From: Octopus vulgaris
Taxonomy: Eukaryota
Length of the DNA stretch: 64,000 nucleotides
NCBI GenBank assembly: GCA_951406725.2
Contig: OX597829.1
Location: 20,460,001-20,524,000, forward strand
Reading direction: 5' to 3'
A program made the position numbers and the translations under genes. Positions within the stretch are counted from its first letter, which is position 1. Each line of letters starts with the position of its first letter. The notes under the pieces are model-generated. The model ran no database searches and was not told the origin of the DNA. It saw only the letters and a program-made list of their open reading frames with translations. This document shows positions 2,752-48,708 of this stretch, in pieces.

Positions 2752-2787
<36 letters not shown>

Positions 2788-2968: not shown

Positions 2969-2999
<31 letters not shown>

Positions 3000-8407: not shown

Positions 8408-8416
8408 TCCTTGTAG

Positions 8417-8530
8417 TTGATCGTGACTGTGAAACTAATCCATGTGAAAATGGTGGCACATGTGTAATTGCAGCAAATGGAGTGTCTTGTATTTGTGCTC
8501 CTGGCTGGACTGGATCTTTGTGTGAAACTG
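8417..8530 (+). CDS. JAG: Jagged exon, single EGF repeat (114 nt, phase 1-1)
   Basis: ttgtag|TTGATCGT...GAAACTG|gtatgt; [37 protein letters not shown]. Confidence 0.92.
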
Positions 8531-12709: not shown

Positions 12710-12764
<55 letters not shown>

Positions 12765-15700: not shown

Positions 15701-15868
15701 CTCTCCAGCTGGATTCCCAAATGTGACTGATTGAGATTATGGACATTATCCAACCATCTCTTTCTTGTTCTACCCCACAAATCAGAGAAATAGTTGCTCA
15801 AACTGTAGATACTTGTAGACCTCTGAGTTATATGCACCTTGTCAAGTAACATTATTCCAAAATTTTAA

Positions 15869-15908
<40 letters not shown>

Positions 15909-17460
15909 TATTTATATATTTTTGTCTTGAGATATTTATTATAATATATTTATATATATGTTTTTGTCTTGAAATATTTCCAGACACCAATGATTGTAGT
16001 CCAAATCCTTGCCAAAATCATGGCATCTGCACTGACAGAATAAACGGTTTCTGCTGTGTGTCCCAAAGGATGGAAAGGGAAAACATGCAATTCAAGTAAG
16101 AGATTATTCTATTATTTTTTTGTTTCTTTTACTCATTTCAGTCATATGACTGCAACCATGCTGGAGCACCGCCTTAAAGGGTTTTAGTAATAGAAATTGA
16201 CCCCAGGACTTTTTTTTAAGCCTTGTACTTATTCTACTAGTCTCTGTTTTGCTGAACTGCGAAATTACGGGGCATGTAAGTATACCAACGCTGGGGTTAT
16301 CAAGCAGTGGTGGGGGACAAATGCAACCACAAAGATACAGACAGATATATACATACATACATACATACATACATACATACATACATACATACATACATAC
16401 ATACATACATACACACACACATACACACACACACACATATGTGATGGGCTTCTTTCAGTTTCCATCTACCAAATCCACTTACAAGGCTTTGGTCAGCCCG
16501 AGGCTATAGTAGAAAACACTTTCCCAAGGTGCCACATAGGACTGATCCCAGAACCATGTGGTTGGGAAGCAAGAACTAATTTAACATGGTTTAATTAGTT
16601 TAATGATTAATTAATAGATATTACTGTTCAATGTTGCAATCTCTACATGAGTTAGTAGCATTTAAATGAGTCATATCCAACCCAAATATTCTACTCGTTT
16701 TAAATTCAAACCAGCCAAATCTGACATCTCATACCATTCTTGCATTATCATTCTAAAAATAGTGGCTTTAGGTACAGACATGGCCATGCAGTAAGAAGCT
16801 TGCTTCCCAACCACTTGGTTCCAGTTTCAGTCCCACTGTGTGGCACCTTGGAGAAGAATCTTCTACAATACCTTTGGGCTGACTAAAGCCTTGTGAGTGG
16901 ATTTGGTAGATGGAAACTGAAAAAAACCTGTCGTGTGTGTCTTTATGCTTTTTGTTTGTATGTATGTGTGTATGTATATGTATATATATATTTATACACA
17001 CAGATACACACATACTGAAAAATGAAGGATTAAATATTTCTGAAGCCTGTGAGAAGAATCTATTTGTCTTTGATGCATAGAACTTTTTAGAAATAAAAGA
17101 TTTAAGAGATTTTCACAGAAATCTCATTAATGGTGCTTGTGCAAAGAGATGACTGTGATGGTCTTTGAGATATACTTCACTGCAAAAGGAAATAAAATGA
17201 AAACGGTACATGTCTTATATGGTGAAATTATACTCTTTTGCATTTGAAGTTTATGATTGTTATTAATTATTATTATTATTATTATTAGCGTGTCAGACAA
17301 AATGCTTGGCAGCATTTCATCCATTTTTGTGTTCTAAGTTCAAATTCTGCCGAGGTCAACTTTGCCATTCATTCTCTCAGGGTAGATGAAATAAGGGTCA
17401 GTGAAACACTGGCGTCCATGTAATCGACTAGTCCCCTTCTCCAACTGTTATTGTTGTTAT

Positions 17461-17527
<67 letters not shown>

Positions 17528-18002
17528 ACTACTACTACTACTATTGAATATTTTTGTTCTTTTTTTGTTATTTTACAGAAGTGAGTCTGTGATTGTTTTA
17601 CATGTTCCAACGGAGGAACTTGTCAGGATCGGGGCGCATCATTTCAATGTCTCTGTCCAGATGGATTCTATGGCGATACCTGTCAAATAGGTAATTAAGC
17701 AAATTGACATGACTGCAGTTTTTTTACTAATTCGTTGCATTACTGTAAAAAAAAAAAAAGTCAGAACATTTCACTCAAGAAGAAATACTTACACACACAT
17801 ATGCAGAAGTATATATACATACACATTTTTTTTTGTGTGTTTATGTATATATATATATATATATATATATAGAAGAAATAAGGTACTCAGAAATGTGGAT
17901 GGTTTTACATGTAAATGTAAAACCATCCAGATTTCTGAGTACCTTATTTCTTCTAATATATAATGCCTTTATATCACCTCCAAACCTTCTTATATATATA
18001 TA

Positions 18003-18078
<76 letters not shown>

Positions 18079-18717
18079 ATATATATAAATATACACATAC
18101 ATACATTTTTTAAATTTGTTTATGGGAAACATTTTGCACATGCATATAAAGCTCCCATTCCATTATGCCAGCCACAGTCAAATGATGCTGACTGGTGAAC
18201 TAGTTTTTCAAGGTTGCATCAAGTTGTATCAAGTTATAATGTGGGATACATGTAAATTATAATATCAAAAATAATCCTTGGACGAAATTTATAAACATTT
18301 ATTTATATCGCTACATGTGTTTTCACAAATTACATGTCTCTTAAGATCGTAGTCTGTAATCCTGCGATAATTACAGTGTAGTCTGTAGTATCCATGAACA
18401 TCCAGTTGATCATTGCCATTGGTTCATTTCTTCAGGTGGAATTTGTGGAAGCATATGTAGCGATGCATTAAATGTTTATAAATTCCACCCAAGGATTATT
18501 GTTATTATTAACATATATGAGAGAGATATGGTGATGAAAACAGGAAAAATAGAACTCAAAATATGAATATATTAATATTTTTAGCAGAAGCAAGAGAGTA
18601 ATTCAAGGTTTGTGAGTTTCGTGCATTTGATAAATGCTAATGCATGAAACACTCGGATCTTGAGTCATTCTGTTGCTTTTGCTAAATATTGATAAGAATC
18701 TATCTATCTATCTATCT

Positions 18718-18773
<56 letters not shown>

Positions 18774-19816
18774 ATGTATTTTTAACTAATTTGTAATATT
18801 TTCCTTGTTTCTAGTCACTATGATGTTGAAAATGATAAATTACATAAGGAAAGATTAATGTTAAAATACAAAATATTAATCTTGTGCATTATTTACAGAT
18901 TAGGTATTAATTGATATAAAAATTTATTCTGGTTTTTTTTGTATCCATTTTACCATACTAGCATTTGTTGGGGCATCACAGCCAGAAGCCCTTCCTGTTA
19001 CAAAACCCTTCACTGTTGTGAATATACAGTGTGTTCATCATTGATTGAAACAAAGACAGTGTATTTCAACAGAAATATGGTAACAGAAGAGTTAATTACT
19101 CCCATATAGGGTGTGTGGAGGCACATGGCCTAGTGGTTAGAGCAGTGGACTCATGGTCGAGGGATCATGGGTTCGAATCTCAGACTAGGTGATGTGTGTG
19201 TTTATGAGCGAAACACTTAAGTTCCATGTGGCTCTGGCAGAAAGTAACGGCAAACTTCTGCTGACTCTTCCGCTACAACTTTCTCTCATTTTTTCCTCCT
19301 GCATCTAGCAGCTCACCTGTGATAGATCGGTGTCCCATCCAGGTGGGGAACCTATATACCAATGAAACTGGGAAACCGGCCCTTATGAGCCAGGTATGGC
19401 TCAAGAAGGGACAAACAACAACAATGTAGGGTTGCAATTAATACTAATGAGATACTAGTTACTACAACAATAAGGAAAACTTTTTGGAAACTCTTTCTTA
19501 AGTTACTAAATCCCTTCCAAATTCTTGACTATTTAAGAAAATCTTTTGAAATAAATGAGCCATGCATATTTGTTAAAAATATAGACACAAAATGTTAAAC
19601 AATATTGAATTTTAATTTTTTGTTTTTGTTAAAAAATTATTTAAAATTTTCTTTCAAAGCTTCTTGGCACAGCTGTGATTCAAACCCTTGTCAGAATGGA
19701 GGAACCTGTGTCAATTCTGGCGACAGCTTCACTTGTTTTTGTAAGGAGGGATTTGAAGGCAATGTCTGTGAGCAGAACATTAATGATTGCTACCCGTTTC
19801 CTTGGTAACTATGCCA

Positions 19817-19853
<37 letters not shown>

Positions 19854-20462
19854 GAGTGAGAGAGCAGTGCATGCCATCTAAGTGACACTGGGGTAAAATA
19901 TACAAAGCCCAGAATACCCATCATGACTACCCATCCGATAAGGGTACACTAGGCACATGCATCACAACAATATGTGCACGACAGGGTGATCTCATATCAA
20001 GATAAACAGTGCATGACCTTGCAAGTGGGGCCCAGTTAGAATTTTCTTCTGGTCGAGTAACCCATCCCGCTCAAAAGGTCCCTGAATAAGAGTTGTTTAA
20101 GGATGTTGAACGAAACACCCATGTTTCCAGAGGTGAATTATTCAAACCCCAAAAAATTCCTCTCATCACATGGCTATGATGCTCCTCCACTACTTCTGCT
20201 TGTGATCAGAGATGCACATATTGTCAGCCATTAAGGGACATGCTCAACTGGTTAAGGTCAAACAACTGACAAGCAAATCTGTGGTATTGAGCAGAATATT
20301 TGCTGTAGCTCATCTTTTATACCAAGACAAAACAATGTACATGATAACACTTCCAATCAGTTAAGATCAGAAGCCACGAGAACCACTGCTTGGTACTGCA
20401 TCAGGGCATGCCATGAGAGCCACTGTCTGGTACTGAATCATTATTATTATTATTATTATTAA

Positions 20463-20493
<31 letters not shown>

Positions 20494-22288
20494 CAAATTC
20501 CACTGAGGTTGACTTTGCCTTTCATCCTTTCAGGATCATTGAAATAAGTACCAGTTGATCACTGGGGTTGATATAATTGACTTATCTTCTAAACTAAAAT
20601 TACTGGCTTTCTACCAAATTATTACCACTGCTAAGGTGGTGAACTGGCAGAATCATTGGCATGCCTGGTAAAATGCTTAACGGCATTTCATCCATTTTAT
20701 ATTCTGCGGTCAAATTCTGCCAAGGTCACCTTTTGCCTTTCATCCTTGATAAATTAAGTACTGGGATCAGTGTAATCAACTAGTCCCCTCCCTGCAAATT
20801 TCAGGCCTTGTGCCTTTAGTAGAAAGGATTATTATTATTATTATTGTTGTTGTTGTTTTTCCATTTCAGTTACAATGGTGCTCAGTGTATTGATGGTGTA
20901 AATTGGTACTTGTGTGACTGTAGCAAAGGCTTTGCTGGACCAGACTGCAGAATAAGTAAGCGTTTCATTCTACCAGCTGTTATTTCATCTTGCATAGGTT
21001 CTGTATTGGTTAATGATTCATATCACTTAATCAATGTATACCTGTGAGTATGTCTGTCTATATATTTGTGTTTATAAGGCGGCGAGCTGGCAGAAACATT
21101 AGCACACCAGGCGAAATGCATTGCCATATTTCGTCTGTCGTTACGTTCCTAGTTCAAGTTCTGCTGAGGTCAACTTTGCCTTTCATCCTTTCGGGGTCGA
21201 TAAATTAAGTACCAGTTACGCACTGGGGTCGATGTAATCGACTTAATCCGTTTGTCTGTCCTTGTTTGTCCCCTCTGTGTTTAACCCCTTGTGGGTAGTA
21301 AAGAAATATATATATTTGTGTTTATGTTTAGGTGTTAAAACCCTTTTGGTTCTAGCTTGCCAGAGAGTGCCCTTGGTTTTACAATACAGAATTTGTTTTA
21401 AGTGATCTAAATTAAAATTTCATGATGATTTATGTTCTAAACACCAGCCTAATAATAAAAAAGTTTATCTTACTGTACTCTACATTATTTTCAAATTTAG
21501 TTGTGAGAGAGAGAGAGAGAGGCAGGTTATGTCAACTGAAATATGGTAACAAAAAGGTTAAAGTGATCTAAATCAAATCCTTCTATCAAAATTTCATGTT
21601 AATTTTATATTCCAAACTAACACCAGCTCAATAATGATTGACAAAGTTATTTTATAAAATTCTTCACCATTTTCGAAATTAATTGAGACAAAGATAGCGT
21701 ATTTCAATAGAAATTTGGTAACAAATACAAGGCGTTGAGCTGGCAGAAACGTTAGCACGCTGGGTGAAATGCTTAGCAGTATTTCGTCTGCTACTACGTT
21801 TTGAGTTCAAATTCCGCTAAGGACGACTTTGCCCTTCATCTTTTGGGGTCAATTAAATAAGTACCAGTTACGCACTGGGATTGACATAATCGACTTAATC
21901 CGTTTGTCTGTCCTTGTTTGTCCCCTCTGTGTGTAGCCCCTTGTGGGCACTAAAGAAATAAGAAATTTGGTAACAATAAGGTAATTAAAGTGATCCAAAT
22001 TAAAATCTAGCATCAAAATTTCATGTTAATTTATGTTCTAATCACCAGCCTGATAATAACAGTTATTCTATTAAATTCTATTAAAATATGAAAAAATCAA
22101 CGAAAATACACATTGCAAATAAAAAAGGCTTTTTATGAAAGGTAATGACAGATATATACATTTAGATGGACTGAGGTAGTAATAAAAGTCATTATTATGA
22201 GATGATTATAAGATGATTATATAACCGTCCAACCCATGCTAGCATGGAAAACGGACGCTAAACGATGATGATGATGATGATGATGATG

Positions 22289-22356
<68 letters not shown>

Positions 22357-22644
22357 GTTTAAATATTTGTTGTGCAAGATTTTTTATGTGAAGTCGTGTG
22401 TTGAAACAGATATTGTTGTATTTAGGAATGGTCATTTTGCCAGTTTAGCCAATAAAAACACACGCACTATATATTTGGTGTTACTTTGCTTCAGTCTTAT
22501 TTATTTTTTACATTAATCTTAATCTTATTTCGGCCATAAGATTAAGATTAATGTATAAAATAAATAACACTGAAGCAAAGTAACACCAAATATATAGTGC
22601 GTGTGTTTTTATTGGCTAAACTGGCAAAATTACCATTCCTAAAT

Positions 22645-22713
<69 letters not shown>

Positions 22714-23001
22714 GTTAAATCTATGTCCAGTCATATAGTGACCAGACATAGACTTAACTACATAAATACATTACTACTTTATGTTTTAGAGTGTGCTGCT
22801 TTTTGGGTATATGATACATTGACAATATACTGACGAGCGAAAGCAAAACCTGTTGACAAACACAATACACTTTCACTTATAAAATATATTAAAACTATGT
22901 GAACTGTGTGCATTTTCCTTCTTCTATTTTATATATATTTTTTTGTATCACAACTCACCATGTGGAGGATAATTGAAATTCTTCTCCTCCCCTTTCGTTA
23001 C

Positions 23002-23040
<39 letters not shown>

Positions 23041-23691
23041 TTATATATATATATATGTTTATATATCAATAATGACAAAAGAACGAAAGTTACATAATTA
23101 ATCATTAAGCATAAGTATAATGAGTTCTCACAGTTGGTTCTTGGCATTTCCATAGCGCTAAGCCGAATTGTGATATATAATACACATACATGCACACGTA
23201 AATGTGCATGGGTGTGAGGTCCTCTTTGCATCGCTAACTAATCTCTGTTTGTTACACATCAATTTCGGCTTTTATGCACTTGAAGAGAGTTGAAGGAAAT
23301 TCGTGTGTGGTGTGTGTGTGTACCTGTATATCTATCTGTGGGAAATGTGTTGTCAGATGAAGTAAGAGCGTCTTACTTATTCCACCTGTTTGTCCTTGAC
23401 ACTAACCTAGTTTACGTCATTTGTACTGTTAGTTGTCTCCTCTTGATCATATTGTTCCCAGTTCTGACTTCTGGCTTGATCTGCCCCTCTCCTTCGCCAC
23501 CACCACCACCACCTATATGCTGCTGCTGGTGACTACTCTTTACCACAGTACTTCTGTCGGCCAAGTCAACCATGACTCCTATTCACATTTGCATGAGTGC
23601 ACACTGACACACACACACTGACACACACACACTACACTATTCTTATATACATTATGAAAGCTATATAAAATATATATATATATACACGCAT

Positions 23692-23722
<31 letters not shown>

Positions 23723-24070
23723 CATACACACATATATAACGGTAAGCTTTATGAAAATAGACAAAAGACGAAGGCAGGTTTACGGAAATAAACAAAAGAC
23801 GAAGGCAGGTGGAATACAGACAAACAATTGTATTAGTATGGCGCTCAGGAAATATAAATGAAACAAGTCTTTAACGTTCCGAGCCTACGCTCTTCAACAG
23901 AAAGATACACAGAGAAAAAAACACAGAAAGAAGGAGAGAAAAAATATGCGTGCAAAAGCTAGCGAATCAACATGGCGATCTGATTTCGGCCAGAAGTCAA
24001 AGATCAAACATGAGACGCAAGAGCGAAATTAGGGGAGATAATAGGGTTGAATGACACCCCGCTGAAACAT

Positions 24071-24102
<32 letters not shown>

Positions 24103-26207
24103 AGAGTGTGTGTGTGTGTACGAGAGAGTATTAGTGCGTATGAGAGGTCTAGACATGTGTATGTATATATGATGTGATGTGTAAAGTCGTATGGTATAGT
24201 GTAGAGAGAGGAGAAGAAGGGGGGAGGGGGGAGAAGGAAAGAGGAGAAGAGGGGGGAGGGGGAGAAGGAAGGAGGGAGGATAGAGGGAGAGGGGGAGAGA
24301 GCGAGAAGGGGAGCAGAGGGAAGGGGAAGAGGGAAGAAGGAGGGAGGGAGAAAGAGGGAAGAAGGGAAGAGAAGTAGGGGTGAAAGGATGAAGGACTGAA
24401 GAGAAGTAGGGGTCGGGGGGAGGTTAGATGAGGAGGGGGAGGGGGTTAGATGAGGAGGGGGGCGAGTTGAGACCAAATGGCATATAAGAGCGAAGAGAGA
24501 AGATTAATTCCTGTTCACGGCGCAAACGGGAATCCGGATGGCCTCTGTGTAAGGACAAACCGAACACAGACAGGTGTTGCAAGGAGTGACCGGTGGAGTG
24601 GAAATGGCGTGAGACTGGTGTGTCGTTCGCAAGGTGGATGTCACGAAGGTGTTCCGCGAACCGGTCAGCCAAGCGGCGTCCCGTTTGTCCAATGTACAGG
24701 GAATGGCAGAGAGAGCAAGAGACGCAATAGATAATATTGCTGGAGGTGCAAGTGAAGGAGTTGATGATGCGAAAGGGTCGATGATGGGTGCCAGTGAGGA
24801 GGGTGGTGTTGGAGAGGTAAGGGCAAGTGCGGCAACGTGGGCGGGAGCAGGGGAACGAGCCAGGTTGGGAGGTAGGGTCAGGGAAGGAGCTATGGACCAA
24901 AAGGTCTCGAAGGTTATGGGCTCGTTTGAAAGAGGGGAGGGGTCGGTTAGGGAAGAGGTGTGAAGTGGACGGGTCGGACTGGAGATGACGGAAAGCTCGA
25001 AGAATGGTGCGTTGGAGAGGTAGGGTCGTGGGGTGGTAAGTGAGGGGAAAAGGGAGGCGGGAGACTACAGGGCGGGTTCGGGGAGAGAGAACAGATACAC
25101 GGTCCACGGAACGTGCTCTGACAAGGGTGGTGTGGATAGTGGTGAGGGGGTATCCACGTAGGATGAAGTGGTGAACCATACGTTGAGACTGAGTCTCAAA
25201 GTCATGGTCGTCACTACAGAGCCTACGTAGACGGAGGAATTGGGAATAGGGGATGGAAAGCTTGGTGTGTTCTGGGTGGGAGGAAGAGAAGTTGAGGTAA
25301 GAGTGTGAGTCTGTGTGTTTGTAGTGAATGGAGGTGGTAAGAGTGGAGTGAAAAATGCTAACCGAAATGTCGAGGAAGGAGACAGAGGTGTAGGAGATAG
25401 TGGAAGTGAAGTGGAGGGCTGGATGGAAAGATTGAACAAAAGAGAGGAAGGAATCTAGATGTTCACGGGAGAGTGAGGTGGCACCGATAATGTCGTCAAT
25501 GTAACGACCATATAGTTCAGGAGTGGGACCAGTGAAATTAGAGAATATTTGGGCCTCAACATAGCCAACGAACAGGTTCGCATAGTTGGGGCCCATTCGC
25601 GTTCCCATGGCCACTTCCGAGACCTGATGGTAGAACTCGCCCGTGAACGAGAAGCAGTTAAGAGTAAGGACAAGTTCGGCCAGACGAATGAGTGTGGAGG
25701 TGTCAGGTTCAGGGTTGGAGCGGAGGTCAAGAAAGTGTTGAAGTGCCTGCAGTCCTTCGTGGTGAGGGATAACGGTATAGAGGCTCTGAATGTCCATAGT
25801 AAAAAGGATTTTGGAGGAGCCGGGAGGAAAGGAGAAAGAGTTGAAAAGCCAGAGAGCATGGTTGGTATCGTGGATGTGGGAGGGAAGAGATGCCACTAGG
25901 GGGCAAGGACACGGTCGAGGTATTTAGAGATGAGCTCCGTGGGGCAGTTACAGGCGGAGACGATGGGGTGGCCAGGGTTGTTGGGTTTGTGGATTTTGGG
26001 GAGGAAGTAAATGGTGGGGGTACGTGGGGTTCGCACAATTAGGTTGGATGCGGTGTGGGGGAGACGGGAGGACGAGATGAGGTCGCGGACAGTAGAGGAT
26101 ACCGTCTGTTGGTAGCTACGTGTGGGGTTAGAGGACAGAGGGGAGTAGAAGGAGGTGTCATTGAGTTGGCGGAAAGCCTCGGCCCTGTAGAGATGCATGT
26201 GTATCTC

Positions 26208-26238
<31 letters not shown>

Positions 26239-26249
26239 GCATATGTATC

Positions 26250-26294
<45 letters not shown>

Positions 26295-27581
26295 TTACAG
26301 GAATGTAAAAACGGTGCTGTATATAAAAAACATTTTAGAGTAACATAATAACTCATATTTTTGAAATTGCAGATATACAAGAATGTACTTCGAATCCATG
26401 TGCTTTTGGCAGTACTTGCATTGATGAAATTGGTAGCTATAAATGTATTTGTCCTCCCGGAAGAACTGGAAATCAATGTGAAAATGGTTAGTCATGTATC
26501 TATGTAAACTTGTTAATTAATCAAAATTAAATTTCTGTTGTATTTAAATCAATCCTTTAGCATTTAAACTGACCATATCTGGCCAAAAATATTCTACCTG
26601 TTTCGTGTTCCTACTGACCAGATTCAGCCTCTCACCAACCCCGTAATGTTCTTTTGAAACTAAACGACCACATCATTGAAATCTCAAAGCTATGAGATAA
26701 TGTATGATTAATTCAAAACAATATGAACAAATAAGCATTACATCTGACAGAATAATGTAAATGCTAAAGGCTAAAACATATACCTATATAAACAGGTTCT
26801 GGTGGGTCTAAGGATTAACATATCTTTTTGGTTACAAGAGCCTGTCTTAATTCCAATAAAACATTTGGTAATTCTTTCAGTTTTTTTCTTTTCTGTTATA
26901 TTTTCAGTTATTGGACATTTGCCTTCTCCTAATTCCTGTATTTTCAAACAACATGCCTACTCTGACAAAAGCTCATGGAAACATGAGTGCAATTCTTGTC
27001 ATTGCAACGACGGTCGCGTTCATTGTACAAAGGTAAGGAATTTATCCTGTAAACCCAGCAAGTTGTTGTTACATATTAGTTCTACTGCTGCTGTTGTTGT
27101 TGTTTAGCACCACAAGTCAATCCTGATCTTTGGTAAAAGACATTCCAGCCATGAACCTCCTATCTTTTTCCCTTGCTCATAGAGTACTCTAAACCAGTGC
27201 TTCTCAAACTATCTAATGTGGCATACTGGCAGGTTTTTTTTCCAATGTGCCAGCAACTGGTAATATTTCTTAGTAATATATTAATTTATACTGGAAACAA
27301 TATATATAACAACAACACTGAACACCTTTTTGATCTTCATGTGTCTAACACACGTGGACATGCCTACAAAGTCAGAAAACAACACAGCTCCCATGACTTT
27401 CGGAAACATTTTTTCACGCTCAGAGTTGCTGAAGCATGGAACAAACTGCCTGCGTCAGTTGTTGACTGCCATGACACTGCATCCTTTAAGGCCCTCATGC
27501 TTTCCGAAATCCGCCGAAACTACACCTGATTATACATACACTTTAGATGAGGTGTAGTGCACCTGAGCACTGTACACAATG

Positions 27582-27643
<62 letters not shown>

Positions 27644-29032
27644 ATGAATATAATAAAAATTGACAATTTTTAAAAATCCATGCCAAATCAGACTAGAGCC
27701 TGGTACAGCTTTCCAGCATGCCAGCCCAGTCAAACCATCCAACCCATGCATGGTCAACAGATGTTAAATGATGATAATGTATATATATAAAAGTTCCCCT
27801 TCAATCATGAATGACCATGGGATTGCACCTAGAAAGTTCCCTTCTGCGGCACAAAGTTTGTTTATGGAAGATCAGAAGTTGTCCATGCATACCAGCCTCC
27901 CTTCTCCATGCCACCAGTGTTATCCAAGAGAAAGGCAAAGGCCAATACAGCTTGGTACCAGTGACATCACAACTCATTTCTACAGCTGAGTGAACTGGAA
28001 GAACATGAAATAAAGTGTCTTGCTCAAGAACACAACACACAGCTCAATATATATATATATATATATCTGTGTCTGTTATCATTTCCTTGTGAGGACATAG
28101 CAAAATAAATTGCAAGCATTACCATTGTGTGAGCAGTGTCATTCATTTCCAGTCTTCTGCAAGGTCATGTCCAGCAATAGGAAACAAGTGAAAGTTGGTG
28201 ACAGGAAGAGCACCCAGTTGTGGAAAATCTCAACAAATTTCATCCAACCCTTGCAGGCATGGAAGAGAGGGAACATTAAAACAGTGATGATGATATAATT
28301 CATGCCATATTAATTGTAATTTAACTAGTATTGTGGCATTAATTATTATTATCATTAAAATATTTCTGGAATCATCCGGTCCATAATATTTTTTTCTTTT
28401 TCTTTTTTCTTTTGTTTTGTTTTGGTTTGTTTATGAATATTATCATTGGAATATTTCTATATTTGAAGGTTTGGTGCGGACCCAAAAACTGCTTGAGCCA
28501 TCCAAATGTTTCTGAGCCAGTCGATATATGTGCACATGATGAAACGTGTGTTGTAAAAACAACACAGACATGCTTTACACCACCCTGCTTGCCTTGGGGT
28601 CACTGTAAACATATATCAAAGATTGAAGATTCTGCTCCCAGAGATATACAAACCAACTGTATACCAAATGAAGCAAAAATCAGTAATAACTGTGCAAAAA
28701 TCAACCTTCTCTTTGACAAATCTCGGATGCCAAAAGTAAGTTGGAATTAAATTCTTCTCTGGGTAAAAATTCATATTACTCAATGACACTGCTGCCACTT
28801 CTGTTAGATTTTCATCTGTTGCTGATATTTCTGATATCATAACAGATGCTATCTCAGGATGAACACTGCAGTAAATTAAGATTTCACTAATATATCTGCT
28901 TTATGTATGATACACCTATTGCTATTTTAACCTAATACTCTTTCTGTTGCATGTTACAAATTATTATGGGGTTGATATAATTGACTAGTCTCCTTCTCTA
29001 AAATTTCAGGGCTTGTGCCTTTAGTAGAAAGG

Positions 29033-29096
<64 letters not shown>

Positions 29097-30780
29097 GGGT
29101 GTGTGGCCTAATGGTTAGGTTGTTGCATTCACAATTGTGAGATTATGGTATCAATTCCTAGACCAGGTGATATGTTGTGTTCTTGGACAAAACACTTTGT
29201 CTCATGTTGTTGCTTTGCAATCATTTTTAACACCTGACATGTGGTCCGCCATGCATTTGAGTGGGCAATGTTTATTTAATGGAGAGAGTGAGTTAATTAA
29301 TATACAGCACATACATTTGATTGCTATAAAACAAATCATTTGTGCCAGTCGTCAGGCAAAATATGAACACTTATACATCATCTTTGACTGGAGACTCCAT
29401 CATCGTTGTTATGGCATTTACAACATGGTTTCAAGCTGGTTTTCAGGAATTTAAACACATCAGTTTTCAACAGACTTTTGCAATAGCTGAAAAGTTCTTT
29501 GAAAATCATGGTGACCAAATTCCTGAAAACTAAGTAATAAGAGGCACCAAAGGAAAATATGAAACTTTACAAAGAAATGTTAAAATTCACATGTTGAATC
29601 TGAGTTTAGTAATTGCCAGTCTGTAGACCTGACTATTACAATTGATTCTTTTATTTTACAGGGTGTATCTGTTGGCAATATCTGCAGTTCTCTTCGAGCC
29701 TTCCCCAAAGTGCAAGCTTATGCCAAGAAAGAAACGATTATTATTCTATGTGCTATCCAACTTCGAAGAGCTGACTCCATTGAAATCACACTGGTAAGTT
29801 AACTTTTGTTCCTATCTTTTATTTGTTTCGGTTAGTAGACTGTGCCCATGCTGGGGCACTGCCTTGAAGAATTTTTAGTCAAACGACTTAACTTCCTGGT
29901 ACTTATTCTATTAGTCTCTTTTACTGAATCACTTAGTTATGGGTATGTGAACGCATCAACATTGGTTGTCAAGCAACAGTGACACACATACACACATACA
30001 ATGAGCTTCTTACTGTTTTCATCTACCAATTCCACTCAGAAGGATTTGCTGGCCTGGGCAAGATCTTTTTGTTTTATTTTATTTATTCATTTATTCATTT
30101 TTGTAATGGAAAACTAGCTGTTATGAACTGAATTTGCCCAAGTGGAAATGAAACAGTTTAGCGCTAGCATTGTTGATGCAGGTGAACTCAAAATATAAGG
30201 AACTGGAATGAACACAACATTGCACTTTGTGCTGCATTCTAACAGCTCTGGCAATCGTATGCTTGGTAATTACAATTGTTTGCAGGCGTGTTTATATCTG
30301 TGTGTGTGCCAAAAGTCATGTACCAAAACATGTGACATTCCTTATTACATTTATTATTATCATTCATTTTGTTCATCATGTACTTGAATACACATTACAT
30401 GTGTATTCATCATAATTTTATTTATTTTATTCAATTTTTAGAAAAATTGAACCTTGTCTTTCATAATTCCAAATCATATTGAATTTATTTGGCTCATGAC
30501 TTTGGGCCCACTCCATATATCAAAATATCTGAGCAGTAGAGAGTGCACACTGTGAAATATATTATTGTCTGCATAATATTAATTGCATTCTCTTTTCTTT
30601 AACGTTTCAGTCACTGGATATGAAGCACAATGATAATTCAGGAACCCTGATTTCTACCTTAAAAGATCTTGTTGAAGAAACGGCTAATGCTGTCAGTCAA
30701 AAACTTGTCAATAGCAGTGCCTTAAAAGCTGTCATCGATGTCCAGGTACAAACTAATATCATCCCCAAAAAAACCTTCAG
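8417..30780 (+). CDS. JAG: Jagged/Serrate-family Notch ligand, partial gene model (16 internal exons; 5' DSL exons and TM/cytoplasmic exon not in window)
   Basis: GT-AG exons encode tandem EGF repeats, the Jagged-type interrupted EGF ([35 protein letters not shown]), a VWC-like Cys-rich region ([28 protein letters not shown]) and [16 protein letters not shown]. Phases are compatible except at the two 112-nt exons. Confidence 0.95.
9117..9344 (+). CDS. JAG: Jagged exon, two Ca-binding EGF repeats (228 nt)
   Basis: taacag|ATATTGAC...GATATGA|gtaagt; [16 protein letters not shown]...[10 protein letters not shown]...GKNCDM. Confidence 0.95.
10004..10050 (+). CDS. JAG: Jagged micro-exon (47 nt), first half of an EGF repeat
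   Basis: ttgcag|ACATCATT...TGCGTT|gtgagt; [16 protein letters not shown]. Confidence 0.9.
10943..11116 (+). CDS. JAG: Jagged exon, EGF (174 nt)
   Basis: ttgtag|AACCTTGTG...TGTCAG|gtaggt; [19 protein letters not shown]...GYVGLQCQ. Confidence 0.95.
12326..12476 (+). CDS. JAG: Jagged exon, EGF (151 nt)
   Basis: actag|ATTGCT...TGTGAAG|gttagc; [50 protein letters not shown]. Confidence 0.93.
12963..13127 (+). CDS. JAG: Jagged exon, interrupted EGF diagnostic of Jagged/Serrate (165 nt)
   Basis: aacag|TTATTGAC...CATGAAA|gtaag; [55 protein letters not shown]. Confidence 0.96.
13788..14150. mobile_element. Fold-back non-autonomous derivative of the PLE at 33650-39248, with a 13-bp flanking duplication
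   Basis: Inverted arms ~13846-13996 and 14002-14152; TAAAAATTGAATA at 13775-13787 and 14151-14163. Confidence 0.85.
14653..14766 (+). CDS. JAG: Jagged exon, EGF (114 nt)
   Basis: tttcag|ACATAAAT...AGCCGCA|gtgagt; [38 protein letters not shown]. Confidence 0.94.
15984..16095 (+). CDS. JAG: Jagged EGF exon with apparent 2-nt deletion frameshift (112 nt)
   Basis: ttccag|ACACC...TTCAA|gtaag; [25 protein letters not shown] is in one frame and [12 protein letters not shown] in another; the shift falls in the TG run at 16055-16061. Confidence 0.85.
17579..17690 (+). CDS. JAG: Jagged EGF exon with apparent 2-nt deletion frameshift (112 nt)
   Basis: ttacag|AAGTGAGTCTGTGAT...CAAATAG|gtaatt; [34 protein letters not shown] is out of frame with a phase-1 start. 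Confidence 0.83.
19113..19425 (+). mobile_element. tRNA-derived SINE
   Basis: A box TGGCCTAGTGG and B box GGTTCGAATC, then an unrelated body and an (ACA)n tail. Confidence 0.7.
19660..19804 (+). CDS. JAG: Jagged exon, EGF (145 nt)
   Basis: tcaaag|CTTCTTGG...CCTTG|gtaact; [47 protein letters not shown]. Confidence 0.94.
20870..20955 (+). CDS. JAG: Jagged exon, EGF (86 nt)
   Basis: tttcag|TTACAAT...AGAATAA|gtaagc; [29 protein letters not shown]. Confidence 0.95.
21077..21306 (+). mobile_element. SINE of the GGCGGCGAGCTGGCAGAA family (other copies or fragments ~13534, 14820, 17286, 20493, 20634, 21730)
   Basis: Shared AGTTCAA.TTC.GC.GAGGT..ACTTTGCCTTTCATCC...TAAGTACCAG motif across many dispersed copies. 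Confidence 0.8.
22353..22652. mobile_element. Fold-back non-autonomous derivative of the same PLE, flanked by (TA)n
   Basis: Inverted arms centred near 22533; same sequence as 33650-33830. Confidence 0.85.
23738..26190 (-). mobile_element. Penelope-like element (Neptune-type), 5'-truncated, RT plus GIY-YIG, disrupted
   Basis: [69 protein letters not shown]; break at 25896; pyrimidine-rich 3' UTR. Confidence 0.92.
26373..26486 (+). CDS. JAG: Jagged exon, last EGF repeat (114 nt)
   Basis: ttgcag|ATATACAA...GAAAATG|gttagt; [38 protein letters not shown]. Confidence 0.94.
26908..27032 (+). CDS. JAG: Jagged exon, start of cysteine-rich/VWC domain (125 nt)
   Basis: tttcag|TTATTGGA...ACAAAG|gtaagg; [42 protein letters not shown]. 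Confidence 0.93.
27307..27642 (+). mobile_element. 3' fragment of the CR1/L2-group LINE at 4513-7718, with (TTA)n tail
   Basis: [18 protein letters not shown]...EIRRNYT is near-identical to the C-terminus of ORF 4593-5576. Confidence 0.92.
28469..28735 (+). CDS. JAG: Jagged exon, cysteine-rich domain (267 nt)
   Basis: ttgaag|GTTTGG...CCAAAA|gtaagt; [12 protein letters not shown]...[12 protein letters not shown]...[17 protein letters not shown]. Confidence 0.95.
29662..29793 (+). CDS. JAG: Jagged exon, juxtamembrane region (132 nt)
   Basis: ttacag|GGTGTA...ACACTG|gtaagt; [44 protein letters not shown]. Confidence 0.9.
30611..30780 (+). CDS. JAG: Jagged exon, juxtamembrane region (170 nt), last exon seen
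   Basis: tttcag|TCACTGGAT...CCTTCAG|gtaatt; [56 protein letters not shown]. Confidence 0.85.
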
Positions 30781-31504
30781 GTAATTTCAAAGGAATTTTC
30801 ACCTTTGTTCTTATGTTATAAATTCTTATGTGAGTGGATATTTTGAGTTTATTGATGCCTGCTATTCTAATACTTAAAGAATAAAAAGTTTTGAATGGTA
30901 CAACAATGTACTATAATATAGACAATGGGCTATTTACCTGTTGTAATTTAGTTATCCATGGTCTGATACGATGTTTCAGAATTACATTCCTTCTTCAGAT
31001 ATTCTTAAATAAGAATTATCTGTATTATAGTGCATTGTTGTACCATTCAAAACTTTTTATTCTTTACAAACAATACACAATGCTTCAAGCCAACTACAAT
31101 ACTCTCCTATCTAATACTTAGGCATTTAAACCAGCCATATCTGGCCATTTTTCAGCCTCTCACGCCTACCCTGCGATGTCATACTAAAAATGATGCAAGC
31201 ACATCATCAAAATCTCAATGTAAAAACAAATAAAGCATGATTAATTCAAAACAATGCGCATTCATAAGGATAAAATTTAATTTAATAAATATATTCTCAG
31301 ACGAATTCATATTTCAACAAAATTGCATCAACAGTTATTTCCCCCTGTTTATTGTTTATGCCTATGTAACAAAGAAAAATGACATCTTGATTCACCCATC
31401 CGCCTGTTTTGAAGATAATCAAACCATAATAATGAGTTCGAGCCACTCACCCAATGAGTATTTCTGCCAAATTTGGTGAAAATCCATTCAGCCGTTTTCC
31501 AGTA

Positions 31505-39240: not shown

Positions 39241-39284
<44 letters not shown>

Positions 39285-42018: not shown

Positions 42019-42099
<81 letters not shown>

Positions 42100-43077
42100 A
42101 AATAGATGAGTGTATTTTTACCTTGTTAACAATTAACACGGAAAAAATAAATAAATAGTTACCAGGGCAGCAAAAATCTCACAAGTAAAGGTGTTGTAAC
42201 TCCTTGTTTATAAAGGTAGAAACTTCGTGTTTACGTTGAATATTTTGAATAATATGAATTTAAAAAATGGAGTTAACGCAGGCGTAATCAAATATTTTTA
42301 CTTCGACACATGTTTCGAAAATTCCACTGATACTATTTAAAAGAATAAATGGTATAAACAGTGCAATCTTCTCAGGAAAGTAAAAAAATCGGAACTCGTC
42401 AATAAGACATTTTAGCAAAAAATGATGGATTTGTATAGCAATAGACAGAACGCTATTAATATTGTTTAAAAAAACGTTATATGATATAACGTCATAAGTA
42501 GCTAACAGAAACAGTAGGGATATTAATAGTGAATGTTAAATATAATGGAAATTAAAGTTTAAATTATATATAATGATAGAGACTACTTATATGCACTAAA
42601 TGTATGTTTTTGTCAATGCTTACATCTGTATGCTCGCTCTATAACCGTGTTTACTAGAGTATTTTTAGAAAAAATAATGAAAAATAGCTCAGAATTGCAG
42701 AGAAGACAGAATTTCTTGCCTTTGTCATATGGTATCGAAATTGAGAGAATCAACCATTCTAAATGAAATTGTTCATTGTGGTCTTTTAAATCTCAAATCA
42801 GTTTGCTGAGACCGGTACTATTCCGTTTATTTCAGCAAACTGATTTGGGATTTAAAAGACCACAATGAACAATTTCATTTAGAATGGTTAATTCTCTCAA
42901 TTTCGATACCATATGACAAAGGCAAGAAATTCTGTCTTCTCTGCAATTCTGAGCTATTTTTCATTATTTTTTCTAAAAATACCCTAGTAAACACGGTTAT
43001 AGAGCGAGCATACAGATGTAAGCATTGGCAAAAACATACATTTAGTGCATATAAGTAGTCTCTATCATTATATATAA

Positions 43078-45552
43078 CTAGCAGTATCGCCCGGCGTTGC
43101 TCGGGTTTGTAAGGGAAATAACTATATAAGCATTTTTAGAGAGTTATAGCCAAAAAATAGCAAAAAAATGCATTAAAAATGGAATAAAAAATTATGGTAA
43201 TTTTTTTTAAATCGTTGACTCATCGTAGACATTTTTAGAGAGTTACTTCCCTTATTTAATAGCGAAAAAATGCATTAAAATGGAAAAAAATTATGGTAAT
43301 ATTTTTTTAAAAATCGTAGACTCATCGTAGACGCGCGCTAATACCCAGAAGGGCTCGATATGAATCACGACTATAAGATACCCGGTTTTGGTTAAACTGC
43401 ACCGTTAAATGTGGGAGTAGTTAGGAATATAAATCGTAGGAGACAGACACACAACCTTACTTTTATATATAAAGATTTGTGCAACAACTAAAACATTCGG
43501 TTGTGCAAATTGTTTGCACAGGAAACCTGCCCTGTGTGGCGTTTTTTGCCGTTTTTGTGGATCTGTTTCAGCTTTTTTAGCGATTTCTGTTTTGGCGACT
43601 TCAAGCCATGAAGTCGTTGTTCTAAAAGAACGCTGGTCTCCTTGACAACGCTTTACGACGTTGATTTCCATACCCTGCCTTCCCCACAGCTTCACAAGGG
43701 ATGGAAGAAGGGGAGGAGCTACACAGTTGCAGGTGCGAGCATGAACGCCAACGCCGCCACCGACACACGAAAAAATTGGAAGAACCCAGACGACAGCTTC
43801 AGCCACCACCACCACCACCAACACAATCACCACTACCACCATGAGCACCACCACCACTACGCCCATGACCATCACCACCACCATCACGAAGACCACCACG
43901 ACCACCACGACCACCACCATCATCACCACGACCCCCACCATCACCCCCACCACCACCAACAACAACAACAACAACACCACCACCACAAACACGACGACCA
44001 CCACGACCACGACCACCATCACCACTACCAGCACCACCGCCACAACTGCTGCCACTACCACCGCCTCCACCACCACCATACTATGCCTCTGCTCTCTCCT
44101 TTTGGCTACTAAATCCATTACCATATTTCACAAGTACCATCGCCATACAATATTGCCTTCAAAAGTTTGTGTTTGGATAATATTTTTTAAGTAAAAGTTG
44201 TGCAACAACTAAAACATTCGGTTGTGCAAATTATTTGCACGGGAAACCTTCCCTGTGTGGCGTGTTTCCCGATTTTGTAGAATTTGCTTTCGGGCTTTCT
44301 TAGCCATTTCTGTTTTGGTGTCTTCAAGCCATGAAGTCGTTGTTCTAAAAGAACGCTGGTCTCCTTGACAACGCTTTACGATGTTGATTTCCTTACACTC
44401 CCTTCCCCACAGCCTTTAAAAAATATGCGTTAAAATGGAAAAAAATTATGGTAAATTATTTTTAAAATCGTAGACTCATCGTAGACGCGCGCTAATACCC
44501 AGACGGGCTCGATATGAATCACGACTATAAGATACCTGAATTTGGTGAAACTGGACCGCAAAATGTGGGAGTAGTTAGGAATCAAAATCGTAGGAGACAG
44601 ACACTCACACAACTTCACTTTTATATATATAGACTAGCAGTATCGCCCGGCGTTGCTCGGGTTTGTCAGGGAAATAACTATATAAGCATTTTTAGAGAGT
44701 TATAGCAAAAAAATGCATTAAAAATGGAATAAAAAATGATGGTAAATTTTTTTTTAAATCGTTGACTCATCGTAGACATTTTTAGAGAGTTACTTCTCTT
44801 ATATAATAGCGAAAAAATGCATTAAAATGGAAAAAATGATGGTAAATTTTTTTAAAATCGTAGACTCATCGTAGACGCGCGCTAAAACCCAGAAGGGCTC
44901 GATATGAATCACGACTATAAGATACCCGGTTTTGGTTACACTGCACCGCAAAATGTGTGAGTAGTTAGGAATCTAAATCGTAGGAGACAGACACACAACT
45001 TGACTTTTATATATAAAGATTTGTGCAACAACTAAAACATTCGGTTGTGCAAATTGTTTGCACAGGAAACCTGCCTTGTGTGGCGTGTTTCCCGATTTTG
45101 TAGAATTTGCTTTCGGGCTTTCTTAGCCATTTCTGTTTTGGTGTTTTCAAGCCATGAAGTCGTTGTTCTAAAAGAACGCTGGTCTCCTTGACAACGCTTT
45201 ACGACGTTGATTTCCTTACACTCCCTTCCCCACAGCTTCACGAGGGAGGGAAGAAAGGGGAGAAGCAACACAGGTGCAGGTGTGAGCATGGACGCCAATT
45301 CCGCCGCCATCGACACACGAAAAAGTTGGAAGAACCCAAAAAATATGCTTTAAAATGGAAAAAAATATGATAAATTATTTTTAAAATCGTAGACTCATCG
45401 TAGACGCGCGCTATTACCCAGAAAGGCTCGATATGAATGACGACTATAAGATACCCGGTTTTGGTTAAACTGCACCGCAAAATGTGGGAGTAGTTAGGAA
45501 TCTAAATCGTAGGAGACAGACACTCACACAACTTCACTTTTATATATATACA
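43078..45552 (-). mobile_element. Two head-to-tail non-autonomous Helitrons (43078-44633, 44634-45552)
   Basis: Minus strand: 5' TCTATATATATAAAAG, 3' hairpin CCCGAGCAACGCCGGG and CTAG end; inserted between A43077 and T45553 with no TSD. Confidence 0.85.
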
Positions 45553-45734
45553 TTTAAACTTTAATTTCCATTATATTTAACATTCACTATTAATATCCCT
45601 ACTGTTTCTGTTAGCTACTTATGACGTTATATCATATAACGTTTTTTTAAACAATATTAATAGCGTTCTGTCTATCGCTATACAAATCCATCATTTTTTG
45701 CTAAAATGTCTTATTGACGAGTTCCAATTTTTTC

Positions 45735-45820
45735 ACTTTCCTGAGGAGAAGATTGCATTGTTTATACCATTTATTCTTTTAAATAGTATCAGTGGAATTT
45801 TCGAAACATGTGTCGAAAGT
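45735..45820 (+). ncRNA. Hammerhead ribozyme, canonical core
   Basis: ACTTTC-CTGAGGA-GAAGATT..41 nt..AATTTTC-GAAA-CATGTG-TC-GAAAGT. Confidence 0.82.
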
Positions 45821-45899
45821 ATAAATATTTAATTACACCTGCGTTAACTCCATTTTTTTAATTCATATATATATATAAATATTTTATTTTATTTTATTT

Positions 45900-48708
45900 T
45901 GTCTAGTTTCAGCTCAAGAGCTGTGGCCATGCTGGGGCACCGCCATTTGTTGTGGCTACATGATTTTACTTCATGAATGCTTTTTAGCAATTGCCATTTG
46001 GTGCATGAGAGAGTTCGATGCAGCTGCCCTCATCTGCACCTCCAGCCGTGAAGTTGGTTCATCTGGGACACCTGACAGGAAGAGATCCAGTTTTATTTTA
46101 AAGACATCTTCATCCACCCCATGCAGGTCCCTCAGGTTCTTCGGGAAGATATTGAAGAGCTGTGGGCCTCTGAAGCCCAGGCTATCACAGTATCTTGTCC
46201 TACATCTTGATGGCAAATTTGGAGTCCTTGGCACCATGCAGTGGCGCCCAGTTCTAGCATTTGTGTAACTCTCGATGCCCAAGTTTGGGACAAGTCCTTC
46301 TAGGATCTCCCAGATGTATATTATGGCATATCTTTCTCGCCTACGCTCTATGGAATAGAGTCTTAATCTCTTGAGTCTTTCCCAGTAGCTTATATGCTGC
46401 ACAGAGGCTATCTTCTTCGTTGGATCGCCTCAAGTTCTGTGATTAACTTGACACTGGATGGTGGCCATAGCTGAGAGCAATAGTCAAAGTGGCTTAGGAC
46501 AAGTGTCCTCCAGAGGACCATCATGGTTTCCTGGCCTCTTGTTCTAAAGGTTCTAAGAATCCATCAGGTCAGCCGCCTACATTTCATTGCCAATTTAGCA
46601 ACATGCACATGAAAGGTTGCATCATCACTCATGTAAATACCCAGGTCTCGCACTGATTGTGCCTCTGGGATTGCAATCCCTCCAGGTCCAGTATATTTAT
46701 TGGGTATTGCATTTAGTTTTGCATGCTGATAGCATAAAGCTTGAAACTTTTCAGCATTGAACTGAATGCTATTCTTTTCAGCCCACTTGTATATTTTGTC
46801 CAGCTCACATTGCAGGTGCTTAGTGTCTTCAGGGTTCTGTATTGCCTGTGAAACTTTTGTATCATCTGCATAACTTGTGATCGTGGCTCTCTGCGTGGCT
46901 GAGGGCATGTCTGAGAGGGCCATTATGAACAGTAGTGGTCCCAAAACAATGCCTTGCGGAACACCGCTCACTATTTGCATTGGCTACTAACACCTGACTT
47001 CTATCCTTCAGAAAGTCATGAAGCCATTCTCCCAATTTTCCAACTATGCCAAGATCACGCAGTTTGTGACGTATCATTCCATGATCGACTTTATCAAAGG
47101 CCTTTGCAAAGTCGAGATATGTGACTTCCACATTTGAGTGGTTGAGCAGTCGTTTCAGCACCCAGTCATAGTGATGTAGGAGCTGAGTTAAGCAGCTTCT
47201 TCCTGGTCGGAAACCATGTTGGGTGTCAGGCAGCAAGTCATTTTCTTCAAGGAATGTGATTAGTTTCCTTCTGACTATTCGTTCCATGACCTTCCTGATG
47301 TGTGAGGTCATAGAGATAGGTCTGTAGTTCTTGGCTTCCGCTCTGCTACCACCTTTATGAATAGGGCATATTTTACCTTCCTTCAGTTTTCTTGGAAGTT
47401 TGCCAGTTGCACGGAAGCTCTGAAAAAGGAACTGCAGTGGTCTTGCTAGGACTCTCTTACATACTTTTAGAAGGATTGCTGGGAATCCATCGGGGCCAGT
47501 TGCTGAGTTTGTTTTCATTTCATCTATAGCCTTTATTACATCGTCTTCCTTTATATTGATGTAATCAATCATCGCTGCCTCTGATTTTATATCTGCAGTG
47601 GTAAAGACGTTAGTTGGATTGCTGACTTGAAAATGCCCTTGGGGTAGAGTGAAAATACTCTTGAATTGCTCATTTAGTATTTCACTTATCCTCATTGGAT
47701 TTCCTGTGAGTGTGCCACCCTTTTCAAGGAGTAGCCCTATCCTACAGTGCACCGTAACTGTTTCTTTGGCATACCTGTAGAAAGCTCTGGGGTTAGTTTT
47801 TATGTTGTCTATAGCCCAGGCTTCTTTGTCTGCTCTTTCCTTTTCATGGGAGAGTTGCAGACATTTTTCAATTTCCAACAGTTTTATTTTCAGACGGGAC
47901 TTTTCACTGCTTTCAATTTGTTTGTTTAGGCGATTTGAAACTTTTGTACGTCGTCTCGTTAGAATTTTCCTCTCTCTGGGGATTTTGTTCTTGTGTACAG
48001 TGGCCTTTCTCTCTGGAACACTTTTATAGCATATGGCTTGCATTACAGACATGAAGTTTCATGTCGATGTTTGGCGAGGAGAGACATTCAGGCCAGTTTT
48101 GTTTGAGGATCTCTTTCTCAATTTGTTTCCAGTTTGCCTTATGGAAGTTCAAGCTGAAAAGATTCTGAGAGTTTCTTGTAGGCTGCATGTCCATGCTTTC
48201 CTTTGGCCCGTACATGGTCAGCTCTATCATGTTGTGATCCGAGAGTAGTGTCGGTGTCACTTTCACATTATGGATGAGATCCATATTATTTGTGAAGCAG
48301 AGATCCAGTATGTTACATGCCCTGGTTGATTGGAGTATTACTTGCTCCATGTACAGAGTGTTGATAAGGTTCAGGGGGGAACTCGCCTGTCCTCGTTCAC
48401 ATCTTGTCATTCCTGGGAGAGAAAGGACCTCGGGCCATCTGACATTGGGTAGATTGAAGTCTCCCATAAGAAGAACACTTATGTGTTGTTCTAATGTGAT
48501 TAGAAATTCTATTTTCATAAGGCAGTCTTCAAACTTGCCTACATGGCTTGGGGCATCTGGAGGGCGATATGTAGCACACACAACTACATCAAGTTGCCTT
48601 ATGTGTACAATTAGTGTGTCACACACCGAGTTTGAGTATGACAAAAGGACTTGGGGTGTGAGGTCCTCACGGATGTACATAGCAACTCCTCCAAGACTCC
48701 TTTCTATA
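45900..48708 (-). mobile_element. CR1/L2-group LINE (second family), disrupted APE plus RT
   Basis: YRPP, GDFNLP, SDH; NYRPISMTS, QHGFRPGRSC, YLDFAKAFDKVDH, GVPQG, YADD, SIERRRERY; 3' end GGCGGTGCCCCAGCATGGCC. Confidence 0.92.

What the first reader, a model, noticed from the sequence alone, without database searches (positions are those of the whole stretch)
45735..45820. Canonical hammerhead with GUC site in one arm, inactivated twin in the other
Seen: 6-bp stem I (ACTTTC/GAAAGT), CUGAGGA, 7-bp stem II, GAAA, CAUGUG and GUC. The mirror copy at 42300-42381 (minus) has lost 3 nt at the core/stem II junction and 1 nt of stem I. This is the best candidate for an active ribozyme here, and it is sense to Jagged.
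Basis: partly seen in the sequence, partly recalled or inferred. Interest (0 to 1): 0.7.

Follow-up and report, generated by a model that had tools for sequence, protein, structure and literature searches.

The report
Penelope retroelement hammerhead in octopus intron
This is a self-cleaving-type RNA motif (hammerhead) carried at the end of a broken, high-copy Penelope-like jumping gene on the sense strand of, and likely inside an intron of, an octopus Jagged gene; such motifs are standard for these elements, and this copy is predicted to be mostly unable to cut in the cell.

Summary
Observation confirmed: 45735-45820 is a type I hammerhead with an intact core and a GUC site at C45814 (Rfam RF00163 25.6 bits, below the cut-off of 34). 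The mirror copy lacks 3 core and 1 stem I nucleotides, and both losses are private to it. The motif lies about 210 nt downstream of a GIY-YIG C-terminal remnant with the CxxC-E-N-CxH signature of Hydra-clade Penelope-like elements (PLEs). The two copies are the known 'main copy plus inverted 5'-truncated copy', later split by a 2.5-kb insert. It is not a canonical monomer: helix III is 2 bp with a self-complementary loop, so it likely needs a dimer. Helix II is unusually long. In Jagged-sense RNA the mirror arm is its antisense partner (predicted duplex -460 kcal/mol), and local flanks favour a misfold. Intactness fits chance (P about 0.34). Verdict: a new member of a known kind, probably a passenger. 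The modest surprises are the long helix II and a common U4C core variant in the family.

The parts
45735..45820 (+). Type I hammerhead motif with intact core; predicted cleavage after C45814
45748..45802 (+). Extended helix II: 7 bp plus 41 nt folding into further 5-, 4- and 5-bp helices
   Evidence: family allele G45781 adds an apical C-G pair
45806..45813 (+). Helix III / loop III, ACAUGUGU: 2 bp as a monomer, 8 bp (2 G-U) between two copies
42300..42381 (-). Mirror hammerhead with a 3-nt core/stem II deletion and a 1-nt stem I deletion; predicted inactive
42110..42831 (-). Main 5'-truncated PLE copy (longer at both ends): endonuclease C-terminal remnant with two stops, 3' UTR, hammerhead, 3' end next to (TA)n
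42832..43077 (+). Inverted 5'-truncated copy, first part: open GIY-YIG C-terminal remnant with CxxC, E, N, CxH
   Evidence: compared by eye with Craig 2021 Fig. S7
45552..45868 (+). Inverted copy, second part: 3' UTR with the intact hammerhead; ends at a short TA tract
43078..45551 (.). Later 2.5-kb repeat insert splitting the right arm at a TA tract; internally repeated, another copy at 55262-56300; Helitron/Helentron-like by recalled resemblance only
42020..42099 (.). (TA)n microsatellite at the 3' end of the main copy, the likely insertion target
45879..48058 (-). LINE (RT, PF00078) whose 3' tail abuts the right arm
8413..30781 (+). Jagged coding exons; the last (transmembrane and cytoplasmic) exon is not in the window

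Best explanation
The motif is the 3'-end (pLTR) type I hammerhead of a dead, 5'-truncated Penelope-like retroelement, likely of the Hydra clade, and it likely sits as a neutral passenger in the last intron of an octopus Jagged gene, where it is predicted to be mostly silent. Shown: the element remnant, the inverted-repeat layout, the high-copy family, the twin's private deletions. Inferred: one insertion at (TA)n laid down a main copy (- strand) with an inverted 5'-truncated copy (+ strand); a 2.5-kb repeat and a LINE came later; both arms then decayed. Predicted chemistry: in the element's own tandem transcripts two motifs would pair through ACAUGUGU into a double hammerhead and cut after C17. 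Here there is no same-strand partner nearby, and in + strand RNA the left arm would zip up the right arm as a long duplex before the ribozyme could fold.
For: Upstream frame reads NSTGLSKLI.DLKDHNEQFHLEW...CLLCNSE...N...CKH, matching by eye the Hydra endonuclease ends in Craig 2021 Fig. S7 and its stated CxxC/E/N/CxH and (TA)n traits; Atlas look-alikes score 0.94-0.95, one named GIY-YIG fragment. The inverted 5'-truncated copy is a described PLE layout (Penelope-13_HM). 1,888-3,003 contigs per run lay on the 721-nt arm in 4 of 4 runs. Family keeps the A the twin lost (majority of depth in 3 of 4 runs) and no 3-nt deletion is listed at 3%. No variant at 3% or more is listed at C3, G5, A6, G8, A9, G12-A15.1, U16.1 or the palindrome; variants fall at N7 (G>A) and C17 (>A, still NUH). 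Double-hammerhead fold -44.2 kcal/mol against 2 x -18.0 for monomers. Arm-arm duplex -459.7 against -51.6 and -46.6 for the arms alone; probability of stems I+II with an open core falls from 0.05 (86 nt) to 2e-5 to 6e-4 with longer native flanks. Arms differ by 14 events in 558 nt, so zero in one 86-nt motif has P = 0.34. Dimer dependence and low activity of metazoan PLE hammerheads: PMC4209133.
Against: No RT or full ORF of this family was recovered: Pfam, two protein searches and PDB gave nothing for the 72-76 aa remnant, so the clade rests on motif likeness. Rfam score is below the family cut-off. U4C is common in the family (30-79% of contig depth in 4 of 4 runs), which weakens the case for strict selection on catalysis. 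Placement of variants at tolerant sites is post hoc: 4 of 6, p = 0.008 in the family register but 3 of 6, p = 0.05 in this copy's register, and p = 0.08 against the flank. The left arm holds more private changes than the right (about 9 against 3 by my reading), a mild tilt toward the right arm being spared. Folding energies ignore tertiary contacts, kinetics and proteins. The intron position is inferred, as the last Jagged exon is outside the window.
Confidence: 0.85

Rival explanations
1. The + strand copy is an active intronic ribozyme kept by the host: it cuts Jagged pre-mRNA co-transcriptionally, as a monomer or paired with transcripts of other family copies, and tunes splicing of the last intron.
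For: Core intact and on the Jagged strand; the 86-nt motif alone forms stems I and II (mean pair probability 0.79 and 0.93); the right arm has fewer private changes than the left; intronic ribozymes that affect host expression are described (CPEB3, PMC10919898, search listing only).
Against: Intactness is expected by chance (P = 0.34); right-arm alleles absent from the family (A45726, T45822) strengthen a competing hairpin and shorten stem I; 2-bp helix III; antisense arm upstream in the same RNA; no read ends were found at the cut site even for an active PLE hammerhead (PMC11167929).
Confidence: 0.07
2. The hammerhead belongs to a non-autonomous derivative (a retrozyme-like or hairpin element) that is amplified as a unit and not as a truncation product of an autonomous PLE.
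For: At least five near-fixed differences from the family majority are shared by both arms (42338, 42389, 42392, 42512, 42546), so the source was a minor lineage or the inversion arose after insertion; animal retrozymes derive from pLTRs (bioRxiv 10.64898/2026.07.22.740005).
Against: No head-to-tail array; it carries an ORF remnant; no contig joint reproduces the inversion centre near 42810-42831 (table 5); the laid runs may be other octopus species, which would explain shared differences.
Confidence: 0.06
3. The motif is a chance match or a relic that never cleaves in any form.
For: Below Rfam gathering; common U4C variant; hammerhead mutants do not impair PLE insertion in vitro (PMC11167929).
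Against: 0.05 loose hits expected per shuffled window; position matches that of Hydra hammerheads; invariant core and palindrome across hundreds of family contigs.
Confidence: 0.05

Closest known systems
Hydra-clade PLE hammerheads (Craig et al. 2021, PMC8557442, File S2; includes Hydra-1_Obim of Octopus bimaculoides)
   Same: Canonical CUGANGA/GAAA core in the 3' UTR near the element's end, self-complementary AC..GU helix III, CxxC-E-N-CxH endonuclease end, (TA)n target, inverted 5'-truncated copy (Penelope-13_HM).
   Different: Loop II is 3-10 nt in 26 of 26 listed Hydra rows against 41 structured nt here; helix III spans 8 nt against 9-10; protein end and hammerhead sequence differ from Hydra-1_Obim, so it is another family.
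Metazoan PLE minimal hammerheads (Cervera and De la Pena 2014, PMC4209133)
   Same: Type I, long helix II (7-8 bp), G10.1-C11.1, palindromic helix III, dimer requirement, pairs of motifs on opposite strands 100-700 bp apart (here about 870 bp once the insert is removed).
   Different: No extra nucleotide between A9 and G10.1; 6-bp stem I; much longer loop II.
Rfam RF00163 Hammerhead_1
   Same: Full-model match over 45735-45820.
   Different: 25.6 bits against a gathering score of 34, with a long insertion in helix II.
Non-LTR retrozymes (bioRxiv 10.64898/2026.07.22.740005)
   Same: Type I hammerhead of pLTR origin that needs a second copy.
   Different: No tandem array here, and an ORF remnant is present.

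Membership tests
Type I hammerhead ribozyme | Conserved core C3 U4 G5 A6 N7 G8 A9 / G12 A13 A14 A15.1 / U16.1 H17 | tested here: met
Type I hammerhead ribozyme | Three helices, helix I open-ended | tested here: met
   6-bp I, 7-bp II, 2-bp III (8 bp as dimer)
Type I hammerhead ribozyme | Rfam RF00163 gathering score | tested here: not met
   25.6 < 34 bits; the model penalises the long helix II insertion
Type I hammerhead ribozyme | Site-specific self-cleavage | not testable with these tools
   needs an in vitro assay
Canonical monomer-active hammerhead | Stable helix III and short helix II placed for loop I-loop II contacts | tested here: not met
   helix III hairpin +2.4 kcal/mol, pairing about 0.03; loop II is 41 nt
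Penelope-like element, EN+ | C-terminal GIY-YIG endonuclease | tested here: inconclusive
   Only the last 76-82 aa remain; Atlas GIY-YIG-named clusters at 0.94 and 0.88; Pfam no match; motif match by eye
Penelope-like element, EN+ | PLE-type reverse transcriptase in the same ORF | not testable with these tools
   5'-truncated; no genome held; no homologue retrieved
Penelope-like element, EN+ | 5' truncation with inverted or tandem pLTR copies, hammerhead in the pLTR | tested here: met
   layout described
Hydra clade | CxxC and CxH flanking the conserved E and N | tested here: met
   CLLC-E-N-CKH
Hydra clade | Insertion into (TA)n | tested here: met
   TA tracts at 42020-42099 and 45865-45877
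Hydra clade | RWK, DKT, CxCX5C motifs, no CCHH, RT phylogeny | not testable with these tools
   those regions are not in the window
Non-LTR retrozyme | Head-to-tail tandem non-coding units, each with a hammerhead | tested here: not met
   only an inverted pair; self-BLAST

The most novel reading that the evidence does not exclude
An undescribed, very high-copy octopus Hydra-clade PLE family uses a new hammerhead architecture, a 55-nt multi-bulged helix II facing a bulged, extended stem I, and has amplified in two core versions, canonical CUGA and weakened CCGA (U4C). Comparing their cleavage rates with their copy number and age would test directly whether hammerhead cleavage matters for Penelope transposition in vivo.
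Probability: 0.3. Interest if true: 0.5.

Novelty: new member of a known kind. Interest (0 to 1): 0.22.

Why it matters
As a single copy it matters little: hammerheads are reported in all Hydra-clade and other canonical PLEs, in thousands of copies per genome. The family has some value, because the role of PLE hammerheads is unsettled (catalytic mutants do not impair insertion in vitro, PMC11167929) and this family shows a long helix II and a frequent U4C variant. The locus also predicts a duplex of about 560 bp in Jagged pre-mRNA, a plausible A-to-I editing substrate (heavy editing in octopus is recalled, not tested).

Tried and rejected
No genome held, so no copy census, full-length element or last Jagged exon. 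Rfam microRNA matches at 42760-42886 are just the palindrome centre, all far below cut-off. Protein searches with the remnant: none among longer proteins (16 candidates), none among near-length proteins, none in PDB; the all-representatives search never ran. Metagenome DNA pattern: 0 hits. L001 (phage contig) and L002-L004 are chance 17-46 aa matches with no PLE context. Sequencing runs: no RNA holder listed; X11 and X18 are only guessed RNA and hold family contigs, so they say nothing on expression of this copy. Earlier scan findings: nothing in 3 look-ups. Hydra-1_Obim considered and rejected as the same family. CpG decay as the source of the U at position 4 considered: no matching G>A at 45743 is listed. 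Blocking the three non-family flank bases raised the hammerhead-fold probability from 6e-4 to 3e-2 in the 116-nt context but only to 3-4e-4 in longer ones, so they explain part of the misfold only. Rfam gave no match for the 53-kb motif. Luense et al. 2017 on dimer cleavage of PLE hammerheads is recalled only; it is not held.

Full report
Observation. A canonical-core descriptor finds this motif alone on both strands of 64 kb; 100 shuffles give 0.05 loose and 0 strict hits on average. Rfam misses it at gathering level and on a 4.2-kb stretch, but on 161 nt RF00163 aligns over exactly 45735-45820 at 25.6 bits, E 1.6e-4, under the cut-off of 34. The mirror copy gives no hammerhead match. It lacks three nucleotides at the core/stem II junction, which puts A at position 8 against C3, and one A of stem I.

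Context. The two motifs are the outer parts of one inverted repeat of about 560 bp centred near 42820. A 2.5-kb internally repeated insert splits the right arm at a TA tract (43078-45551), and the tail of a LINE abuts it at about 45879. Both arms begin with a reading frame ending in W..K....F.L.W......PY....K.CLLC.SE.......N...E....CKH. On the minus strand it runs through the 22-nt spacer as NSTGLSKLI, so the minus copy (42831 to about 42110) is the longer one at both ends and the plus copy is the inverted 5'-truncated partner. Craig et al. 2021 (PMC8557442; I read passages, section 11, and parts 1-2 plus searched passages of the supplement) define the Hydra clade of C-terminal-endonuclease PLEs by CxxC and CxH motifs around the conserved E and N, (TA)n targets and canonical hammerheads. 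Their Fig. S7 C-termini match this remnant position by position by eye. Atlas look-alikes score 0.94-0.95, one named GIY-YIG fragment. Pfam, two protein searches and PDB found nothing for so short a piece, so the clade is likely, not proven. The listed octopus family Hydra-1_Obim has a different protein end and hammerhead.

Host gene. One exon-encoded peptide is 100% identical to an Octopus bimaculoides EGF-repeat protein and 75% to Argonauta jagged-1b-like. Exons run on the + strand from 8413 to 30781; the transmembrane and cytoplasmic exon is not in the window. The motif is thus on the Jagged strand and likely within the last intron.

Family. 1,888 to 3,003 contigs per run lay on the 721-nt left arm in 4 of 4 DNA-like runs; depths are not copy numbers and the runs are from three coded organisms, none shown to be this one. 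The A lost by the twin is present in 62-79% of depth in three runs and 4% in the fourth, where loose ends show it instead; no 1- or 3-nt deletion is listed on the right arm at 3%. Within 45735-45820, seven variant positions are listed: A45781G is near-fixed (this locus is the odd one; G adds an apical pair), and the others are 45736 (at 3% or more in one run only), U4C (41, 79, 76, 30% of depth), N7 G>A (54-81%), 45769, 45795 and C17>A (3-19%). A loose end shows the CCGAAGA core directly. Leaving out 45781, four of six variants fall on the 15 unconstrained positions in the family register (p = 0.008), but three of six in this copy's register (p = 0.05) and p = 0.08 against the flank; these tests are post hoc and suggestive only. 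Perreault et al. 2011 (PMC3088659, passages) say U4C lowers activity considerably in vitro yet allows viroid infectivity.

Mechanism. Helix III is two base pairs closing AUGU (+2.4 kcal/mol, pairing about 0.03), while ACAUGUGU pairs with itself over 8 bp. A double hammerhead of two copies evaluates at -44.2 kcal/mol against -36.0 for two monomers, and the dimer optimum (-46.4) keeps the same scaffold with a shifted helix III. This fits Cervera and De la Pena 2014 (PMC4209133; I read parts 1-2 of 4, covering results and discussion): single metazoan PLE motifs did not cleave, dimers cleaved weakly, and opposite-strand pairs occur. Frangieh et al. 2024 (PMC11167929; part 1 of 4 and passages) found an Anolis PLE hammerhead active in vitro but dispensable for insertion, with no RNA ends at the cut site. 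For this copy three things argue against cleavage in the cell, all predicted: no intact same-strand partner in the window; native flanks favour two competing hairpins, dropping the probability of stems I+II with an open core from 0.05 to 6e-4 or less, helped by alleles absent from the family (45724, 45726, 45727, 45822); and a + strand transcript makes the left arm first, which pairs with the right arm at -460 kcal/mol against about -98 for the arms folded alone, with about 180 nt of the right arm emerging before the ribozyme. The arms differ by 14 events in 558 nt, so an untouched 86-nt motif in one arm has P = 0.34; the left arm carries more of the private changes (about 9 against 3 by my reading), which I note against my reading.

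Comparison and novelty. It works like, and is most likely a member of, the PLE pLTR hammerheads, Hydra clade. What differs from the 26 Hydra rows of File S2 is loop II: 3-10 nt there, 41 structured nt here; long loops occur in the PLE-X rows of the same file, marked as deviating, and the descriptor used there may have limited loop length. I found no paper on this family's hammerhead: searches; the 2026 Octopus vulgaris repeat annotation (PMC13282606, passages) counts 31 young Penelope-like families and has no occurrence of 'ribozyme' or 'Hydra' in its main text. Its supplements and repeat libraries such as Repbase or Dfam were not checked and may hold the family. The retrozyme preprint was read in part 1 of 5.

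Verdict. A real hammerhead motif, ordinary in kind: a passenger of a dead retroelement copy, probably silent at this locus. Interest 0.22; the family-level long helix II and U4C variant are the only leads worth a bench test.

Noticed in passing
window 53040-53081 (-) and 49868-49908 (-): Two compact hammerhead-like motifs with the covariant U3-A8 core (UUGACAA, UUGAUAA), 4-bp stem II and palindromic helix III, in short palindromic elements next to (TA)n; a relaxed descriptor finds 3 motifs in the window against 0.1 in shuffles. No Rfam match for the first.
   Followed up: partly
window about 53405-53446 (+): Mirror copy of the 53040-53081 motif with G12 changed to A; here the Jagged-sense copy is the damaged one, the opposite of the main finding.
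   Followed up: partly
window 33705-35928 / 37026-39248: A 2.2-kb inverted duplication, 99.9% identical, of an RT plus GIY-YIG-like ORF: a young Penelope-like insertion; no hammerhead found near it by my descriptors.
   Followed up: no
window 31829-33499 (+) and 24424-25923 (-): Two more Penelope-like RT/endonuclease ORFs within Jagged introns.
   Followed up: no
window 43078-45551 and 55262-56300: Internally repeated non-coding element with a short terminal palindrome, inserted at TA tracts, with a CAC/CAA-rich low-complexity stretch at 43800-44120; Helitron/Helentron-like by recalled resemblance.
   Followed up: no
window 42252-45868: The arms predict a duplex of about 560 bp in + strand RNA, a candidate A-to-I editing substrate.
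   Followed up: no
window 45742 (family variant): U4C core (CCGAAGA) makes up 30-79% of contig depth in 4 of 4 runs.
   Followed up: partly
window 50436-51167 (-): Mariner-like transposase remnant (HTH match; family name by recalled resemblance).
   Followed up: no
window 41500-41640: Short tandem repeat of about 49 nt.
   Followed up: no
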